A DNA stretch of 64,000 nt. Source: Isurus oxyrinchus (lineage: Eukaryota). The stretch's first letter is position 1; each line of letters opens with the position of its first letter. Under the pieces are notes generated by a model. That model made no database searches and was not told where the DNA came from. It was given only the letters and a program-made list of their open reading frames with translations. The position numbers were made by a program, and so were the translations under genes. The stretch lies in assembly GCA_026770705.1 (NCBI GenBank), contig JANJGN010000026.1, forward strand, positions 31,310,001 to 31,374,000, in the 5' to 3' direction. Below are positions 7,663 through 64,000 of the stretch, piece after piece.

Positions 7663-8445
7663 ATGGAAGGAGAAAGCACCATTCACAGCAGAGAGAAACC
7701 GCACATGTGCCCTGTGTGTGGACGAGGCTTCAGCCGATCATATGGCCTGTCGAAACACAAGTGCAGTCATGCAGGGGAGAAACCATGGAAATGTGGACTG
7801 TGGGAAGGGATTCAGATCCTCTTCTGAGTTGGATACTCATTAACGCACTCACACTGGGGAGAAGCCGTTCATCTGCTCCATATGTGGGAAGGGATTCATT
7901 TGGTCAGCAAACCTGCTGACACACCAGCATGTTCACACAGGGGAGAGACCGTTCACCTGCTCCGAGTGTGGGAAGGGATTCACTCATTTATCGTCCCTGC
8001 TGAGACACCAGCGAGTTCACACTGGAGAGAGGCCATTCACATGCTCTGCGTGTGGGAAAGGATTCACTGATGCATCCAACCTGTTGAGACACCAGCAAGT
8101 TCATACTGACAAGAGACTTTTTAAATGCCCAGACTGTGGGAAGTGCTTTAAAAGTTCTGGGGTCTGATGTCGCATCAGCATGTTCACACTGATGAGAGAC
8201 CTTTTAATTGTCCAGAATGTGGGAAATGCTATAAAAGGTTCTGGGAACTAATGTTCCATCAACGTGTTCACACTGACAAGAGACCGTTCAGGTGCTCTCA
8301 CTGTGGGACTGGGTTCAGGAGATCACCTGAACTCACTGTACACCAGCGAGTTCACACTGGGGAGAGACTGTTCACCTGCCCCGAGTGTGGGAAGAGATTC
8401 ACACGGTCATCCATCCTGATGAGACACCAGCAAGTTCACAACTAA
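7663..8445 (+). pseudogene. C2H2 (Kruppel-type) zinc-finger pseudogene, ~9 fingers
   Basis: [23 protein letters not shown]... followed by repeated HTGE[KR]PF.C..CGK.F; frameshift near 7795, in-frame TAA at 7841, second frameshift near 8162. Confidence 0.88.
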
Positions 8446-13027: not shown

Positions 13028-13070
13028 ATGGGAATCCTCCTTGTTTTCACCCTGTGTGTCTGTATACCCC
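13028..13070 (+). CDS. NAR-TCR V leader exon (cassette A)
   Basis: MGILLVFTLCVCIP, phase-1 donor GTCAGT (GTGAGT in the paralog); in frame with the V exon. Confidence 0.88.
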
Positions 13071-13218: not shown

Positions 13219-13506
13219 GCTCTTTCAGTCAGTCAGTGACACAGACCCCAGCAGCGGTGACCAGGAAGGAGTGTCAGTCTCTCACCATCACCTGTGTTTA
13301 TTATGGTTATTATTATTTACAAAATGGACACTTCTTCAAACAAACCCAGACCGGGACAGAGTGGGAGCGGATCTCCAGCGGGGAGAGATTTGTTGTGTCG
13401 GTGAATAAAGCAGGAAAGACATTTTCACTGGAAATTCGGGACATGAGAGTTGAAGACACCGCCAACTATTACTGTAAAGCTCAGTACAGATACAACATTG
13501 GTTAAT
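13219..13506 (+). CDS. IgNAR-like NAR-TCR V exon fused to D (cassette A)
   Basis: SVTQTPAAVTRKECQSLTITCVYYG...TEWERISSGERFVVSVNKAGKTFSLEIRDMRVEDTANYYCKA; short CDR2 region as in VNAR; extra FR1 Cys; ends in ATTGGTTAAT directly before a 12-RSS. Confidence 0.92.
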
Positions 13507-13534
13507 CACAGAGGAAAAGGCCTGAACAAATAGC
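13507..13534 (+). other. 12-RSS (3' RSS of the NAR-TCR D)
   Basis: CACAGAG + 12 bp GAAAAGGCCTGA + ACAAATAGC; downstream flank is homologous to the D 3' flank of cassette B. Confidence 0.85.
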
Positions 13535-13848: not shown

Positions 13849-13940
13849 GGTTCTTGTGCCGGGGAGACTGAGAGCAGTGTTACTGTGGTGGAAATATGAT
13901 TCTGTGGATGGATCCGGTACGATGTTGACTGTCATAGCCG
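13849..13940 (+). other. NAR-TCR J segment with 23-RSS (cassette A)
   Basis: GGTTCTTGT + 23 bp + TACTGTG (13881-13887); J 13888-13940 = WKYDSVDGSGTMLTVIA; phase-1 donor GTAAGT. Confidence 0.92.
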
Positions 13941-15640: not shown

Positions 15641-16555
15641 ACCTTCGAGAATACTCCGCTCAGAGAACCAGGGACAGAATCAGTCAATGAGCGGAAAGAA
15701 TTGAAATTGTCAGAGAGCCGGAACAGACAGCTCCCAGTGAGTAACAGGGAAACCACTGCGGAAACTGAACAGACTGATCCCAACCGACAACTGAGAGAGA
15801 TTGGGACAAGTTCCCACGATTGCAAAAAGCGCAAACAGCACAGTAACGTAAAATAAAGTGAGAGTAACTGTAAATATTTCAAATTAAAAGGACACGGAGA
15901 AATTTGGGCCCTCATGTTAGATGAATATAGAGAAACAGATCAAAAAGTTGATAGAAACTCCCGAGCAGTGGTCAACTCCAGCAAATGATTAACCTTTGAC
16001 CACCTATGTTCACTATCGGTTTGGCCCAATCAGTGCTGATGAATCTCATCAAGTTATTATGGATCTTGCTTTGATGCTAAATAGTTCGGTTAGTCTCGGG
16101 CAATCATTTTGGAAACTGATTGCTTCGCTGATAATAAAATGTTCCTTCTGGAAAAATAGAAACAGAAATGTAATATACATTACATGCTGCACTGCAGTTG
16201 AAATCCGGTCCATCCTGTCGGTGCTGCCCCTGTAAAAATGCAACCCAATTATCCCCACTACTCTCTTTCCCCGTAGCCCTGTGTTTTTCCATGTTCCAAC
16301 ATTTATCCATTACTCGTTTGGAAAACACCCTTAACCAGTTTCACCGTCTGTTCAGACAATGCATGCCAAATAGTAAGAACTCGCTCTGAAACACAAAATA
16401 ACACCTCATCCTTTCACTGCTTCATATTCCAATAACAGTGAATGAAGTTAAAGCAGGTTATAAATTAAACAAACTCACCCAAAACCACAGCATCTACTGC
16501 GATTAACAAGTTTCCCAGTCTCTAAATAGATTAAGATCAAATTTTTCTCCTGCAG

Positions 16556-16861
16556 ATTCCAGTTCCATTGTATCCCAGAATCCGCCTGTCCAAACCTCTG
16601 CTGTGGGTGACACCGTTACTTTAAGCTGTGAGTATTCAGGTGTCTGTCAGTACACAGTACACTGGTACCGTCAGTCCCCAGGACAGGCTCCGGATTACTT
16701 GCTTCAGAGACATGCTTCAGGAGAAGAGGATAAAGAAAACACTGTTGGGGGGAGAAGTTCTGCTTCTATCGATCCTGCCGAGAAAATCAGCCGGTTAAAT
16801 ATCTCCAAACTACAACTGAGCGATTCCGCTGGGTATTACTGTGCACTGAGTCAGCGCACAG
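16556..16861 (+). CDS. leaderless supporting TCR-delta V exon (cassette A), open frame
   Basis: CTGCAG acceptor, phase 1; DSSSIVSQNPPVQTSAVGDTVTLSCEYSGVCQYTVHWYRQSPGQAP...LQLSDSAGYYCALS; CDR1 Cys; no leader exon found upstream; consensus 23-RSS at 16862-16900. Confidence 0.93.
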
Positions 16862-16995
16862 CACAGTGATACAGAGCACGGAGGGTGCCATACAAAAACC
16901 TGAACATGGAGGGATTAGACACAGTGATAAAGAGCAGGGAGAGAGCTGTACAAAACCTGAACATGGTGGGATTACAGACATATAATGACACAGAG
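16862..16995 (+). repeat. tandem 23-RSS array (two complete units plus a remnant)
   Basis: CACAGTG-23-ACAAAAACC (16862); CACAGTG-23-ACAAAACCT (16920); degenerate TATAATG unit (16981). Confidence 0.9.
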
Positions 16996-18499
16996 TGCAG
17001 GGATATTGGGAACTCAAACATTATTCACGAACATTTTCTCAAAGGTTGTCCGCATTTTACCGCACAGGATAAAGTGCTTAAACTGATCAGGTCTGCATTT
17101 CCTTCTCGCTCCTCCCACCCTTGAATTTTCCTCTCTGCCCAATGCTCCTGTGAATATACTTCATGAAATTATTTCACATTCTCACACTCCATTATTTCCC
17201 ATGAATCGGTATTTTACCGATTCATAATAACTCAAGTGAGTTTATTGCCACCTTTTTCTACGGGGACCGGGAGATTTTTTTCTCTCTCTTGTTTGGTCCA
17301 GTCCGCCTTTTACCGATTGAGTTGATAAGAAGTCACCGCCTCCTGTGATTTCCCGGATTCTGCCTACGATCGGCTGAGAGATTCTCTCAACTCAACAGGA
17401 CATTTACTGTCTGTTGGAACCGAAAACTGGGGCACCTCTCGACTAGAAAGGATTTAGATCCAGACATGTAAGATAGCATTTCCCACAATTGAGCGTAGCT
17501 GGGAGTGGCCTCTATCTGTGACACGGACCGCTCTGACTCGGGACAAACGGGCCACACATGCGGACTGGAACAACACAGCCTCTTACAATCGGCCTGTTCT
17601 ATTTTAATCAACCGCCGCAGCCGCGCAGCGGGTTACCGGCCTCAAACATGACCGAAATCAAGTTTTATGAAGCTGATCAATGATTTCCCCATAATGGATG
17701 ACGTCAAAATGCCTTCTATCAGTCACAGCCCATGTTTCACCCAATCAACCAGGGCCAGGGGGTCGGGGACCGGTGGGTGGGGGAACAGCCGGGAGTGGGG
17801 CGCCTCCAGCTCAGCTGATAGCCTGGGCATAAGAATGGAGGCTATTTGACTAAAGGATGTAATCAGGAGCGAAATGGTGCTGGGCAAATAAATTACAACT
17901 GTTTCAAAGTCTGGATTTAGCTCAGTTTAGGGCCCCATTGTTCATAATTGATATTAGAACATGCCTGGAGGCCGGATGTTACGTCACTATCCGTGTTCTC
18001 CTCTGTCTCCCCTGAGAAATTAGAGCTGCTCCGTCTGGTCTCACTACCTTCTCCCATTCCTCACTTAGATCAAGGGGGCGCTAATAAGATGATTTTGACC
18101 AGGTTCTCTCTTTCACCTGGTGACTCCTGTAAAGGGTACAAAGATATGAAGTCGAGGTAACTCTTTTTAGGCGAGGCCCCCAGAAGAAGTCCAGAATAAG
18201 CGTTGTCCACAAGTTGTTCATGCCCTGACAAGGTGTCTCAGGGAGTCTCCCAATGTGGTTCACTTCACAGGTACAGCAACAATGAGCATGAAAGGGTGAC
18301 CCCCTGTCAGTGGCGAGCGTCCCTTTAAACTGCGTTTGCAATTAACACCAAGATCGTGTTTTTTCCCCATCACCTGGACTCTGTTGGAGAGTGCTTTACT
18401 TGAAGCATTTGCACCAACCGCTGTGCAGCATCTTTAAGTAAAGCGAGCAGACATTTTTGCAGCCTCACTGCGGCTCCCAGCTCTGACTTCAACTTCTTT

Positions 18500-52400: not shown

Positions 52401-52700
52401 ATGGATAATTGAATGAATTATTTTAGCAGCAGCATTGTAGGTGGCTCGAAGTATAAAAATATTTGAGGCTCTGAGGAGCCAGAAGGAATGTGCGAACTTG
52501 ATGGGTTTAACGGCTTTATCCTGTGCTACAAAATTATAAAGTCAATTGTAAATACATTCTGGAGATTAGGTGATTGCGCATTCACCCCACCTCCCCGCAC
52601 CCCCCCCCCCCCCACCCCTCCCCCCCCCCCTTCCCCGTGCATGTGTTTGTCTGCCTGTGAGCGTTTGAGAATTCTCCTTTCAAATTAATCCTGAAAATGG

Positions 52701-53114
52701 ATAAGAATTTGAACTCTTTCCATGCCTTGTATCACTGTGTGTCTGTAATCCCACCATGTTCAGGTTTTTGTACAGCTCTCTCCGTGTTCTGTATCACTGT
52801 GTGTCTAATCCCCACCAGAGAACCATAAAAGCCATAGAACCATAAAAAAGTTACAGTAGAGAAGGAGGTCATTCAGCCCATCTTGTCCATGCCAGCCCGA
52901 GACATCCAGGTGCCATTTCTAATCCCGCCTTCCTGCACCTGGCCATGTTCGGGCTTTTGTACAGCTCTTTACGTGTTCTGTATCACTGTGTGTCTGTGAT
53001 CCCACAATGTTCAGGTTTTTGTGCAACTCTCTCCCTGCTCTGATTAACTGTGTGTCTTTAATCCCACCATGTTCAGGTTTTTGTATAGCTCTGTCCGTGC
53101 TCTGTATCACTGTG
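52701..53114 (-). repeat. tandem 23-RSS array, 62-bp unit, five heptamers / four complete RSSs
   Basis: Heptamers at 53108, 53046 (CACAGTT), 52984, 52795 and 52733; the first four have exact 23-bp spacers and ACAAAAACC/ACAAAAGCC nonamers. Confidence 0.93.
52818..52942 (-). mobile_element. CR1 3'-tail insertion inside the RSS array
   Basis: GATGGGCTGAATGACCTCCTTCT...TTCTATGG-type terminus, flanked by CCA on both sides. Confidence 0.8.
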
Positions 53115-53420
53115 CTTTGCGCCGACTCAATGCACAATAATACACAGCGGAGTCGCTCAGTTGTGGTTTGGAAATCTTTAACCGGCTGATTTTCTCCGCA
53201 GCATCGATAGAAGCAGAAATTCTCCGCTCACCAGCGTTTTCTTTATTCTCCTCTCCTGAAGTGTGTCTCTGAAGCAGATATTCCGGAGCCTGTCCTGGGG
53301 ACTGACGGCACCAGTGTGCTGTGTACTGACAGAAACCTGAATACTTACAGCTTAAAGTAACGGTGTCACGGGTAGCAGAGATTCTTACAGGTGGATTCTG
53401 GGATATCTTGGAACTGGAAT
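53115..53420 (-). CDS. leaderless supporting TCR-delta V exon (cassette B), open frame
   Basis: TCTAG acceptor; DSSSKISQNPPVRISATRDTVTLSCKYSGFCQYTAHWCRQSPGQAPEY...QLSDSAVYYCALS; CDR1 Cys. Confidence 0.93.
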
Positions 53421-56200
53421 CTAGAGGATAAAGAAGAAAGAACATTATTTTTTTGTTTAACCGTTGTTTGTCCAGGGGAATATGTCAACTGCGTGAATAG
53501 CTCTGCTTTTTGCAGCAATTTTCTTCGTTTGAAACCTGTGTGAACTGTATTTACTGTTATTAAAATATGATCAATGGAGACGTGAGGTGATATTTTCTTT
53601 TCCATAGCGAATTCTCCGGATCAGGGCCGCACTGTCTGAATTGGAGGTCGGAACGGATGCCATAGGAATTTTAAAACGGATGATGGAAATAAAAATATAG
53701 AGCTATGGAGGAAATTCGCGAGTAATGGGAACAATTGGTTTGCACTTTTAAAGGGGCAACACCTACGCGATGGGCCGAATTTCATCCTTCCGTGCTGGAT
53801 AATTCTATGCATTATATTACATTCCCGTTACTATTTTTCTTGGCGAGTAACAAACCCGAAGGAACATTTTATGATCAGTGAGGCAACCAGCTTCCAAAAA
53901 AAAAAGTTTGTCGGAGAGGAACACGTGTGTAGAATCACTGCGCACTGCAAGATCCAACACAAACTGATGGGCTTCATCAGTACCGATTTAGCCAAACAGA
54001 GCATAAACATCAGTGGTCAAAGATCAATCATTTAGTGCGGTTTCAAACAGCTCTGGAATTTTTTATCTGCCTTTTGCTCTATTTCTCTATGTTCTAGCAA
54101 TAGGGTCCAATTTTCTGCAGTTCAGTTCATTTGAAATAATTACAATAAATTCCATTTTTTTATTTCACATTTACTTTATTTCGCATTTACTTTCTGCTTT
54201 TTGCGGTTCTTCCAATCGTGGGAACTTGTCCCAAAGTCTCTCAGTTGTCGATAGGGTTCAGTCTGTTCAGTTTCCGCAGTGGTTTTACTGTTACTCACTG
54301 GGAACTGCCTCTTCCGGCTCTCTGGCAATTTCAATTCTTTCCGCCCATTAACTGATTCTCTCCCGGGTTCACTGGGCGGAGTTTTCGTTCAATTTCACAT
54401 TATAGAGGATGACGAATTTGGAAAGAGGAATGGAGCATACAACCTGTGTAGATAATCCCTTCCAGCCTGACCACACCCGAAACCTAATTGACCATTTCCC
54501 TCCAGCTCGCTGTATCGGTCTCTGTACCACCCTCCCTCCTGTATTTTCAAGTGTTTCGATAAATACTTCAGTACTTTCTGCTCCAACCGCTCCCTGTGGC
54601 AACAAATTCCACATGCTGATGTTTTTTTAATTATATTTATTTGTCTTAATGTTTTTATTTGTTCTTTAACGACTGTCATATGTTGATGACCTATTGCTCT
54701 GGACTCAGCTACAAATAAACAATTTCTCCACATTAAAGCCATTCGTTACTTTTTTAAAAAGTCTATGAAATCTTCATGGAAGCTCGTGGTTCTCCACTTC
54801 CGAGAAGAAAGGAGACTCAGCCTGTTCAGCCTTCCCGGAGACATGTGGATTGCTGCTGATTTCCTTTCTCGGTAGTGTAAGAAATCAAAGCAGAGAATCA
54901 AATCAATAGAAGCAGGAGCCGCCATATCACATTTGAAAGCTGATCCGCCATTCAGTAACATCTTGGTTGATTTACAACCTCAATATCACATTCCCACACT
55001 CTCCCCATATCCCCTGATTCTTCTAGCGTCCAAACATCTATCGAATATTGCCTTGCTTGCACACATATAGTGAAGATCCACAGCTCTCTGAGCTGTAGAA
55101 TGTCAGATTTACTATAGTTCTACTGAATCATTTCTTTCCTTCTCAGTTCTAATGGATGACTCTTTATTCTGAAACTCCGACCCAAGTTATATACTCCTCA
55201 GTCTGGGGAAACTCCGACTCAGAATCTGCCCTGTCATGATCACCAATGATTCTTAAATGCTCTAGGAAATATAGAGCTCCACTGCTCTATGGCCATCTCA
55301 GGAATCAGTCTAATGAACTTTTGCTGCACTCCTTCCAAAGCAAGTTGATCTCTCTTCTGCAAGAAGACCGAAACTTTACACAGGATTCCGGACTGTAGTC
55401 CGTTTCAGTCCTTCCCTCCCTAAACCTCACACACCAGGGGGTCAGATTGAACCCAATCCTTCTCTCCCTTTCGATTAATTATTTCTGCTGATACTAAATG
55501 AACGTTCCCCCAGTTTCTAAATGTTTCCTTCTGTCCCTGTTCTCCTTTATAAGATTAATGCATCACCCTCAGTCTCTCACTGCACTGTGTTGTTTTAATT
55601 CACAGTAATCAGGATACAGATAAATTGCTATCTCTCAAACATTCACATTCAATATAGAGAAGTGTCTGCAGTTCCAAACTTCAACATTTCAGTCTGCGGG
55701 CGGAAAAGGAGGAAAGTGATTGGTTCTATAAAGGCAATTGAAAGAAATGGCGGGGTGAATGTTACTAATTTCAGTCGCTGATTGTCCAATAATAAAATTC
55801 CATTTGGGCCCAGATCAGGATCTCTTATATCTGAAGTCCCTTGTGTCACTTTCCCGTTTATTCCCCCGGGTCAGCTATTGAACTAGCCGCAATTGTGTTG
55901 AGTTTATTCACCCGGTACCTCATTCACATTGCGCGGCTCAGACTGCCGGGATCTAAAGGACAGATAGAGCTCCCTCGTCACAGTTAACACCGGGAGTGGA
56001 GTCCCGAGTGCCGACAATCAACGATTCAGAGTGTGAGAGTCCCTGATGTTGATATTGTCCCAGATGTGCCCGTTAAAACAATAATGGTCCAAATTCCGTT
56101 AACTCCCACATCCCACCCAAACTCCATTGATCACAATAATAAACTGACGGTGAACATTACCGGGGACAGTCAGTAACCGGCGGGGTTTGGAGTCACTTAC

Positions 56201-56992: not shown

Positions 56993-57543
56993 AGATTTTG
57001 TATCGCGGGAAGCCGAGACCCATCACTGTGTGTGTTGTACCAGTACTGAGCTTTACAGTAATAGGCGGCGGTGTCTTCAACCCTCACATTCCGAATTTTC
57101 AGCGAAAATGTCCTTTCTGCTTCATTCACCGACACAACAAATCTCCCCACGACCCCCCCCCCCCCCCCCCCCCCCCCAACCTGGAGATCTGCTTCCGCTC
57201 TGTCCCGGTGTGGGTTTGTTTGAGGAAATATCCATCATGAAAATAATAACCCGAATTATGACCATAACAAACACAGGTGATGGTGAGAGACTGACACTCC
57301 TTCCTGGTTACCGCTGCCGGAGACTGTACCACTGACTGACTGAAAGAGCCTGGAAATTAAACAGAGAAAGTTTAATGGACAATCAGAGCCGAACCGCAGG
57401 ACGGGGTTAAAACCCCGGACAGTGTTTGTAATTGGGATGGACTCGGGCAGCTTTATATGAAATCCACACAATGTCGGTTCGTTTGATCGGTACTCACGGG
57501 GGAAACAGAAACACAGGGTGAAAACAAGGAGGATTCCCCTCAT
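56993..57543 (-). pseudogene. NAR-TCR V with leader and 22-bp-spacer RSS (cassette B); frameshifted as assembled by a G25 run
   Basis: Leader 57543-57498 MRGILLVFTLCFCFP|GTGAGT; V 57349-57031 SVVQSPAAVTRKECQSLTITCVC...[G25]...GRFVVSVNEAERTFSLKIRNVRVEDTAAYYCKA; CACAGTG-22-ACAAAATCT. Confidence 0.85.
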
Positions 57544-62999: not shown

Positions 63000-64000
63000 A
63001 CAGGCACTGCATCAATCATTTCTGCATCGAACCTTGTCCTTGTTCTTACTAAACCTGACCCTGTGAATGTATATGTTACACTAAGTCACCTCTCTGATCA
63101 TATTGCAATAGGTTGTGTCTCAGTTGCTTCTGTGATAAGCTCAATCTCAGTTGTCAATGTACTGGACCAAGGCCATATTATATTAGATATTCTGTCAGTT
63201 ATGATTGCGTTAAACAATGTCATGGCTAATATGACAATAGTCCATGCCTCAGTTGTTACTGCACTAGTACTTGTCTCTGTTTATACTAAACCAGAGCATG
63301 TTCCAGTTTGCATGACACAAGGCTGTGTCTCTGTCATTACACTGTTAGACCCTGCCACCTTTATCCTGAACTAGAGGATTTCTTGGCTAATGCTGCACCA
63401 GTCTATGACTTTGTTTATATCGCCCAATGCCCTCTTTCTGTTATTATTTTATAATACCATGTCTTTCTTGTTGCTGCAATTGTCCATATTTCTGTTTATA
63501 TAAATCTAGGCTCTTTGTTGGCAATTACAGCATGAGGCTCTGTCTCAGTTTAGATTAGAGAATGCCCTGTATCAGATAAAACTGCAGTAGACCACGTGAC
63601 AGTTTCCTTTCACTAGATCCTGTATCAGTTATTACTGAGCTAGACCATGTCTGTGTTCATATTACACAAGACACTGTCTCAATTATTACTTCTCTCGGCA
63701 CTGCCTCACTTTTTATTCCACGAGATCATCACCCTCTTTATATTACACTAGATCATGTCTCTGTTTCAATTCTTTTCGACCTATCTCAGTTTGCATTCCC
63801 CTGCCTGCCGCGGTTTATATTACACTAGACCCTGCCTCAGTTTATATTACACTACACTCTATCTCAGTTTATATCATACTAGTCTCTATCTCAGTTTATA
63901 TTACACTAGACCCTGTCTCAGTTTATATTACACTAGATCCTATCTCACTTTATATTACTCTAGATCCTGTATCTGTTTATATTACACTGGACCCTATCTC
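63000..64000. repeat. 30-bp satellite, becoming homogeneous toward the window end
   Basis: TCTCAGTTTATATTACACTAGACCCTG-type units at 30-bp spacing from ~63810. Confidence 0.9.

What the first reader, a model, noticed from the sequence alone, without database searches (positions are those of the whole stretch)
16862..16995. Same RSS array, shorter, behind the cassette A supporting V
Seen: two complete 23-RSSs (16862 and 16920) and a third decayed unit (16981) with the same TGAACATGG.GGGATTA linker. No such array follows the four conventional V pseudogenes or the NAR V segments. Inference: the array predates the cassette duplication, varies in copy number, and within this window is specific to leaderless supporting V segments.
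Basis: seen in the sequence. Interest (0 to 1): 0.7.

Follow-up and report, generated by a model that had tools for sequence, protein, structure and literature searches.

The report
RAG-scarred recombination-signal ladder in shark TCR
Behind one class of shark T-cell-receptor gene pieces the DNA cut signal is repeated head to tail; the spare copies likely drift rather than being selected, but inherited joints suggest the cutting enzyme has used them in germ cells and likely helped build the repeat.

Summary
Observation confirmed: one perfect 23-RSS (16862), a second with a nonamer one A short (16920), a decayed remnant (16981). It is one short member of a family-wide feature: 76 of 91 supporting-V loci parsed in this genome carry 2-10 RSS units (62-bp period), none of 61 NAR V or 32 other V ends does, and a second species shares it. 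This scan noted such arrays before in other shark genomes. New here: (1) heptamer and nonamer are conserved in first units (1.2% vs 8.3% substitutions) but not in distal ones (7.8% vs 8.5%); (2) the linker is an 11-bp short form plus 12 bp that match the start of a TCR D segment, the indel ending at the heptamer border; (3) eight cassettes run from linker 1 straight into a D-J block, like a V-D coding joint at the second RSS; (4) two loci hold an exact 12/23 signal joint on an array RSS, also in the second species. A stop at the first heptamer (54 of 62 open V) would make distal joins non-productive. Best reading: a RAG-seeded, self-renewing minisatellite of cleavable but mostly unselected signals. 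Somatic use is untested; the key NAR-TCR papers were not held.

The parts
13028..13070 (+). NAR V leader exon of cassette A
   Evidence: ATG, 14 hydrophobic codons, phase-1 GT donor
13219..13506 (+). NAR V exon of cassette A, already joined to D in the germline, in-frame TAA at 13503-13505; 12-RSS follows at 13507-13534
   Evidence: V-set domain; a-b loop Cys and no Trp in the WYRK place, as described in PMC1845163
13849..13940 (+). NAR J with its 23-RSS (13849-13887) and phase-1 donor
16039..16095 (+). broken leader remnant of the supporting V (stop after 11 codons)
   Evidence: homologue of the leader-like exon aligned (A-type copies L048, L127 shown there; the window copy scored just under the cut-off)
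16556..16861 (+). supporting V exon of cassette A, open, CDR1 cysteine, phase-1 acceptor
16862..16900 (+). array unit 1: perfect 23-RSS; TGA at 16867-16869 is in the V frame; spacer carries two marks otherwise seen only in distal units
16901..16919 (+). linker 1 (19 bp, 4 bp shorter than the family's 23-bp linker), with the D-like core
16920..16957 (+). array unit 2: perfect heptamer, 23-bp spacer, nonamer one A short
16958..16980 (+). linker 2 (23 bp, the commonest family form): 11 bp plus 12 bp D-like
16981..17025 (+). decayed terminal RSS remnant running into the family's shared 3' flank
53115..53420 (-). supporting V exon of cassette B
52700..53114 (-). cassette B array: RSS at 53114, 53052, 52990, 52801, a 127-bp insertion in linker 3, terminal remnant from 52739

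Best explanation
This is a head-to-tail array of 23-bp-spacer recombination signals that follows most supporting V segments of the NAR-TCR family in this genome; it likely began as a short duplication of the V's own signal, likely took up a piece of a TCR D segment at a RAG cut in the germline, and its extra copies likely persist as a self-renewing minisatellite that RAG can still cut but that would mostly give non-productive joins. Shown: the array, its family-wide and exclusive distribution, unit gain and loss, conservation of signal bases in the first unit only, the stop codon at the first heptamer, a 12-bp linker indel ending at the heptamer border, an inherited exact 12/23 signal joint on an array RSS, and eight cassettes whose first linker runs into a D-J block. 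Inferred: that the 50-bp unit (RSS + 11 bp) came first and the 12 D-like bases were inserted; that the linker-to-D junction is a RAG coding joint at the second RSS and not a homology-driven exchange; that unequal exchange with the selected first unit keeps about half of the distal signals intact without selection on them; that thymocytes sometimes join at distal signals, leaving RSS1 available for a later V-to-J join.
For: First units: 5 substitutions in 413 signal bases vs 87 in 1049 other bases (p 3e-8); distal units: 97 of 1246 vs 260 of 3063 (p 0.47), one cassette per clade, 26 cassettes; same result on all unique units. 105 of 220 distal units still have a perfect heptamer and at most one nonamer mismatch. 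In-frame stop at the first heptamer in 54 of 62 open V. Linker bases 11-22 match 10 of the first 12 bases of the D at C242:590156; 27 of 63,988 window 12-mers do as well; with free offset and strand 206 of 20,000 shuffles reach the score; a second D copy shares the first 8 bases exactly. The 11-bp linker occurs in 21 units over two deep clades plus L104, always ending at the next heptamer. Eight cassettes (7, L157) continue from linker 1 into about 1.9 kb of D-J1-J2; that block is sister to a decayed D-J cluster at C26:29.856 Mb (100/100, 10% apart), younger than the family's intron divergence from the other clades (14-30%), and lacks the D's 12-RSS. L035 and L106 hold NAR-D 12-RSS fused head to head to an array RSS; contigs of organism B from two studies bridge that joint with two units fewer. 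Germline V(D)J joining in sharks is established (PMC2193156 abstract; PMC2193153 passages).
Against: No somatic data: no RNA holder was listed, so use in thymocytes is untested. Units are not independent, and a test on single bases cannot see selection on the array as a whole. Earlier, unchecked notes of this scan say the ladder is old across sharks and rays, which a purely neutral repeat explains less easily and which would make a 10-of-12 match to a present-day D harder to keep; D cores change fast here (7 of 16 bases between two clusters only 7.4% apart). The direction of the 12-bp indel cannot be read from the tree, whose base is unresolved. The linker-to-D junction is 16 bp long like a full D, so a homology-driven exchange or a changed donor D remains possible. 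The signal joint does not show which unit was cut. No C-delta exon was identified, so the label 'delta' rests on RSS layout and V type.
Confidence: 0.55

Rival explanations
1. The array is selected as a whole as RAG bait: several signals raise local RAG binding so that these distant, often inverted supporting V segments are joined often enough, and the join is then made at RSS1.
For: Confined to one V class; kept in 76 of 91 loci and in a second species; 34 of 62 open-V cassettes have at least one near-perfect distal RSS, 49 of 62 by a looser rule; earlier notes report it in several sharks and rays (unchecked).
Against: Distal signal bases vary as fast as spacer and linker; 15 of 91 loci have a single full unit and 13 of 62 open-V cassettes no usable distal RSS; distal signals are not better kept behind open V than behind broken V (33 of 71 vs 17 of 27, p 0.18); a bait that is cut gives a stop-containing join.
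Confidence: 0.22
2. The array is a brake or retry device: joins at distal signals are dead on purpose, delaying the supporting-V step until the NAR V-D-J step is done, and leaving RSS1 for a later V-to-J rescue.
For: Stop at the first heptamer in 54 of 62 open V; J segments with 12-RSS lie downstream of D, so RSS1 could still pair after a distal join; the eight D-J-joined cassettes show the predicted intermediate in the germline.
Against: Same lack of selection on distal signals; a heptamer followed by A gives TGA or not by frame alone, so the stop needs no selection; no transcript evidence.
Confidence: 0.1
3. An ordinary minisatellite with no RAG part in its origin: the D-like linker is chance and the short linker a plain deletion; the joints are separate accidents.
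For: The D match is modest with free offset (p about 0.01); most linker length variants are CA slippage; tandem repeats are common in the window.
Against: The D-like bases are exactly those that separate the two linker forms and abut the heptamer; the signal joint is exact on both sides and obeys 12/23.
Confidence: 0.1
4. The units are germline D-like cassettes that lengthen CDR3 when a distal signal is used.
For: D-like linker; in three cassettes (L106, L111, L113) the V frame runs through the first RSS without a stop.
Against: Stop at the first heptamer in 54 of 62 open V; none of the 8 exceptions combines an open frame through unit 1 with a usable distal RSS; the linker has no 5' 12-RSS, so it cannot act as a D.
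Confidence: 0.03

Closest known systems
NAR-TCR, the doubly rearranging TCR-delta of cartilaginous fish (Criscitiello 2006, not held; features read in passages of PMC1845163, PMC12227049, PMC3457774)
   Same: NAR leader-V-D-J upstream of a TCR V with a CDR1 cysteine, phase-matched splice sites; NAR V within 6.5 kb in 78 of 81 supporting-V loci.
   Different: The passages read describe no RSS array, no D-like linker and no leader remnant.
Germline V(D)J joining in shark Ig loci (PMC2193156 abstract; PMC2193153 passages)
   Same: Inherited coding-type and signal-type joints at heptamer borders, shared between individuals and species; the commentary proposes signal joints with insertions and hybrid joints as germline products.
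   Different: Here the products are in a TCR locus, involve spare signals behind a V, and one appears to have been amplified into a tandem repeat; the published cases are joined genes and one hybrid joint.
RAG-mobilised insertion of excised fragments into breaks (PMC5339680, section 14 read)
   Same: Short coding-end fragments from RSS-flanked donors can insert into a break, as proposed for the 12 D-like bases.
   Different: Shown in mouse pro-B cells at nuclease breaks, somatic, not inherited or amplified.
VH replacement through an embedded cryptic heptamer (established knowledge; PMC3906580 seen as search listing only)
   Same: A signal left upstream of a first join allows a second rearrangement of the same V region.
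   Different: There the spare signal is a cryptic heptamer inside V; here full 23-RSS copies lie outside the coding end.

Membership tests
NAR-TCR supporting V | NAR V (a-b loop Cys, no Trp of WYRK, own leader) with D and J upstream | tested here: met
   definition from PMC1845163
NAR-TCR supporting V | extra cysteine in CDR1 | tested here: met
   present in cassettes A and B and 55 of 62 open V
NAR-TCR supporting V | no leader of its own | tested here: inconclusive
   broken remnant in cassette A (met there); an open leader-like frame with a non-consensus donor in 30 of 91 loci, B included; splicing not testable
NAR-TCR supporting V | expressed as a three-domain chain with C-delta | not testable with these tools
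   no RNA holder listed; no C exon identified
Functional 23-RSS | heptamer, 23-bp spacer, nonamer near consensus | tested here: met
   unit 1 perfect; unit 2 two nonamer mismatches; 105 of 220 distal units near-perfect
Functional 23-RSS | purifying selection on heptamer and nonamer | tested here: not met
   met for first units, not met for distal units
Functional 23-RSS | cut by RAG in lymphocytes | not testable with these tools
   only germline joints seen
TCR D segment (the linker) | 12-RSS on the 5' side and 23-RSS on the 3' side | tested here: not met
   3' 23-RSS present, no 12-RSS before the D-like bases: D-derived at most, not a D
Germline RAG signal joint (L035, L106) | exact head-to-head fusion of a 12- and a 23-RSS, inherited | tested here: met
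   bridged in organism B contigs of two studies
Germline RAG coding joint at a distal RSS (eight D-J-joined cassettes) | breakpoints within a few bases of a 23- and a 12-RSS border, both signals lost, trimming without long homology | tested here: inconclusive
   fits linker minus 2, one extra base, D minus 8 against the nearest D copy, but an exchange through D-linker homology is not excluded

The most novel reading that the evidence does not exclude
The ladder is a structure that RAG made and keeps remodelling in the shark germline: spare signals attract germline cuts that captured a D segment into the repeat, fuse cassettes to D-J blocks, delete cassette cores and promote distal signals to first place, and in thymocytes the ladder is selected as a whole to time or raise the second rearrangement of NAR-TCR. 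It would be a natural multi-RSS substrate for testing RAG scanning and signal choice in vivo.
Probability: 0.2. Interest if true: 0.85.

Novelty: new variant of a known kind. Interest (0 to 1): 0.62.

Why it matters
A V segment normally has one RSS. A whole V class with up to ten raises a direct, testable question about how RAG chooses among adjacent signals and how the two rearrangements of NAR-TCR are ordered; natural alleles with 1 to 10 units and both orientations are ready-made test cases. The inherited signal joint and the D-joined cassettes extend germline RAG activity from shark Ig genes to spare signals of a TCR locus, and suggest that RAG errors can seed a tandem repeat. If the distal copies are passengers, they impose a cost (dead joins) that would help explain how often NAR-TCR chains succeed.

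Tried and rejected
Assembly artefact: rejected; units carry distinct substitutions, and contigs of a second individual (X5 record 18, 16653-16980, 1 difference) and of organism B (X20 records 15 and 16) reproduce the cassette A array. Genome-wide satellite unrelated to TCR: rejected; the 100 listed of 108 junction matches lie on C26 23-39 Mb and six unplaced contigs, and of the fetched clusters only L034 and the second arrays of L035 and L106 lack a supporting V directly upstream. Reverse-strand RSS made from nonamer-linker-heptamer: no nonamer in the needed orientation. CDR3 extension: see rivals. D-J-joined cassettes as the ancestral state of all arrays: considered, then disfavoured because their D-J block is only 10% from a decayed D-J cluster and the other clades' 3' flank is not found behind it. 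A strict D pattern search found nothing; D was found by walking upstream of the J cluster. No RNA holder listed. Two script hunts for a C exon gave no convincing hit. Rooting the supporting-V tree failed: base unresolved, row L131 on a long branch and ignored. The open-frame column used a wrong frame and was replaced. No unit-level tree was built; within-array and between-array unit distances are alike (0.136 vs 0.140). Literature: searches listed no paper whose title or abstract start describes RSS arrays behind V segments; the four most relevant NAR-TCR papers were not held; the one supplementary file of PMC3964593 held as text gave no hit even for NAR-TCR, so its immune supplement may bear on novelty.

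Full report
Observation. The window holds two NAR-TCR-type cassettes. Behind the supporting V of cassette A (16556-16861) lie a perfect 23-RSS at 16862, a 19-bp linker, a second RSS at 16920 whose nonamer lacks one A, a 23-bp linker and a decayed remnant at 16981. Cassette B, on the minus strand, has four RSS units and a remnant. Exact RSS matches: 3 in the window, 0 in 100 shuffles. The gene context fits the published definition read in passages of PMC1845163: NAR V with a-b loop Cys and no WYRK Trp, supporting V with CDR1 Cys.

Extent. The nonamer-linker junction occurs 108 times in G000; the 100 listed places are on C26 (23-39 Mb) and six unplaced contigs. All 21 exact tandem 23-RSS pairs in the genome belong to this family. 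I fetched loci around the listed junctions, around all 58 matches of a V-internal motif and around BLAST hits (which scored 40 of 114 candidates, so the family is not fully sampled). Of 91 loci parsed, 76 have two or more full RSS units, range 1-10 (42 of 47 on C26 alone); by my count from the table, 49 of the 58 loci chosen by the V motif alone. Not parsed: L034 (no V), the second arrays of L035 and L106, L157 and a further single-RSS subgroup seen. A NAR V lies within 6.5 kb upstream in 78 of 81 loci. Controls: no self-repeat of the RSS region behind 61 NAR V ends or 32 other V ends (one further 'other' row, L053, is a supporting V; these sets include close paralogues). Among cassette pairs at 97% identity or more, 89 have equal and 19 unequal unit numbers. 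Contigs of a second individual and of organism B (three studies) carry the array, including the cassette A form.

Selection. In unique first units, heptamer and nonamer bases differ from the majority at 12 of 715 sites against 151 of 1758 for spacer and linker; in unique distal units, 154 of 2036 against 445 of 4936 (eight loci with an internally deleted V left out). With one cassette per clade: 5 of 413 vs 87 of 1049 (p 3e-8) and 97 of 1246 vs 260 of 3063 (p 0.47). The unit caller favours intact heptamers, which works against this result. So only the first signal shows constraint. Even so, 105 of 220 distal units are near-perfect, 35 marginal, 80 broken, about what a 9% per-base drift from a good consensus would leave (inference). 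They are not better kept behind open V (33 of 71) than broken V (17 of 27; p 0.18). In 54 of 62 open V the first heptamer reads TGA in frame, so a join at a distal signal would be non-productive; none of the 8 exceptions pairs an open unit 1 with a usable distal signal.

The linker. Walking upstream of a J cluster on C242 gave one D with a 5' 12-RSS and 3' 23-RSS at 590128-590210; two more D-J clusters lie on C26 at 29.93 Mb (7.4% from the first) and 29.856 Mb (decayed, 15%). I call them delta from the RSS layout and V types; no C exon was identified. The common 23-bp linker consists of 11 bp, which also occur alone as a short linker in 21 units, plus 12 bp. Linker bases 11-22 match 10 of the first 12 bases of the C242 D (27 of 63,988 window 12-mers do as well; the 11 bases that exclude the shared G match 9, as do 95 of 63,989) and the first 8 bases of the C26 D exactly. 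With free offset and strand the match is weaker (206 of 20,000 shuffles). The short linker occurs in two deep clades and L104 and always ends at the next heptamer; a second, 16-bp variant also ends there, with some ambiguity from CA repeats. The simplest single event is insertion of a trimmed D piece at a RAG cut between the 11-bp linker and a distal heptamer; a deletion ending at the cut is the alternative, and the tree cannot decide. Coding-end fragments inserting into breaks are known from mouse cells (PMC5339680, section 14).

Germline joints. (a) L035 and L106: the NAR D 12-RSS is fused exactly head to head with an array RSS; D, J, intron and supporting V are gone. These are the only two matches of that pattern in G000 and share spacer marks, so one event. 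Contigs of organism B from two studies bridge the joint and lack two units, so it is inherited. It does not tell which unit was cut. (b) Eight cassettes run from RSS1 and linker 1 into about 1.9 kb of D-J1-J2. The block groups with the decayed cluster (100/100; 10% apart) and lacks its 12-RSS; the upstream introns of these cassettes are 14-30% from other clades, so the event is probably younger than the linker. Against the nearest D the junction reads linker minus 2 bases, one extra base, D minus 8: a 12/23 coding joint at the place of the second heptamer, with RSS1 left intact. Exchange through D-linker homology is not excluded. (c) The first RSS of the 13 or more A-type cassettes carries two spacer marks found elsewhere only in distal units, suggesting a spare unit moved into first place; two bases are thin evidence. 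Germline joining in sharks is established (PMC2193156 abstract; PMC2193153 passages), and earlier notes on this genome report pre-joined NAR exons (unchecked except as seen).

How it likely works. In thymocytes RSS1 gives the productive supporting-V-to-D join; relative to the C26 D-J cluster 1.4 Mb away on the minus strand, cassette A would join by inversion and B by deletion (inference). Distal signals would compete and give dead joins, after which RSS1 could still join a downstream J. Over evolution, unequal exchange adds and removes units and likely refreshes them from the selected first unit, while occasional germline RAG cuts leave scars. I give this 0.55, selected bait 0.22, brake or retry 0.10, RAG-independent minisatellite 0.10, CDR3 extension 0.03.

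Novelty. NAR-TCR and germline joining are known. I found no description of RSS arrays behind V segments in eight searches (listings only, except passages or sections of PMC12227049, PMC3964593, PMC1845163, PMC9248892, PMC3457774, PMC2193153, PMC5339680 and the abstract of PMC2193156), but the four key NAR-TCR papers were not held. This scan recorded the ladder before in other shark and ray genomes; a look-up for a D-derived linker or germline joints at it returned nothing. The CR1 label for one truncating insertion and the VH-replacement comparison are recalled, not tested.

Noticed in passing
window 13219-13534 (+): The NAR V of cassette A is joined to D in the germline and ends in an in-frame TAA one base before the D's 12-RSS heptamer; trimming at the D-J join could remove it. 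Same in A-type paralogues L046, L049, L067, L148, L149.
   Followed up: partly
window 16039-16095 (+); about 53935-53990 (-); 30 of 91 loci: Supporting V segments keep a leader-like exon about 570 bp upstream: broken in cassette A, open with a non-consensus donor in 30 loci. 'Leaderless' may be reached by donor decay.
   Followed up: partly
G000:C242:590-608 kb; C26:29.91-29.93 Mb; C26:29.856 Mb: Three D-J clusters of delta type; two look intact and are 7.4% apart, yet their 16-bp D cores differ at 7 positions.
   Followed up: partly
L035:9202-9227; L106 (C242:380208-380231): Exact inherited signal joint between a NAR D 12-RSS and an array 23-RSS, deleting D, J and supporting V; shared with organism B.
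   Followed up: yes
L036, L037, L039, L040, L063, L071, L073, L078, L091, L095, L100, L105: NAR J lies directly against the NAR V end: fully germline-joined NAR exons are common in this family.
   Followed up: no
L106-L113 (C242): In the cassettes nearest the C242 D the first spacer base is G, so the usual stop at the heptamer is absent.
   Followed up: partly
L032, L033, L035, L106-L113, L129: Arrays of one clade end at a shared insertion that looks like a LINE 5' end (CR1 label recalled, not tested).
   Followed up: no
window about 57150-57180 (-): A long G run interrupts the NAR V of cassette B: pseudogene or assembly error.
   Followed up: no
window 7849-8440 and 63611-64000: An 84-bp repeat of zinc-finger period and a 27-bp minisatellite.
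   Followed up: no
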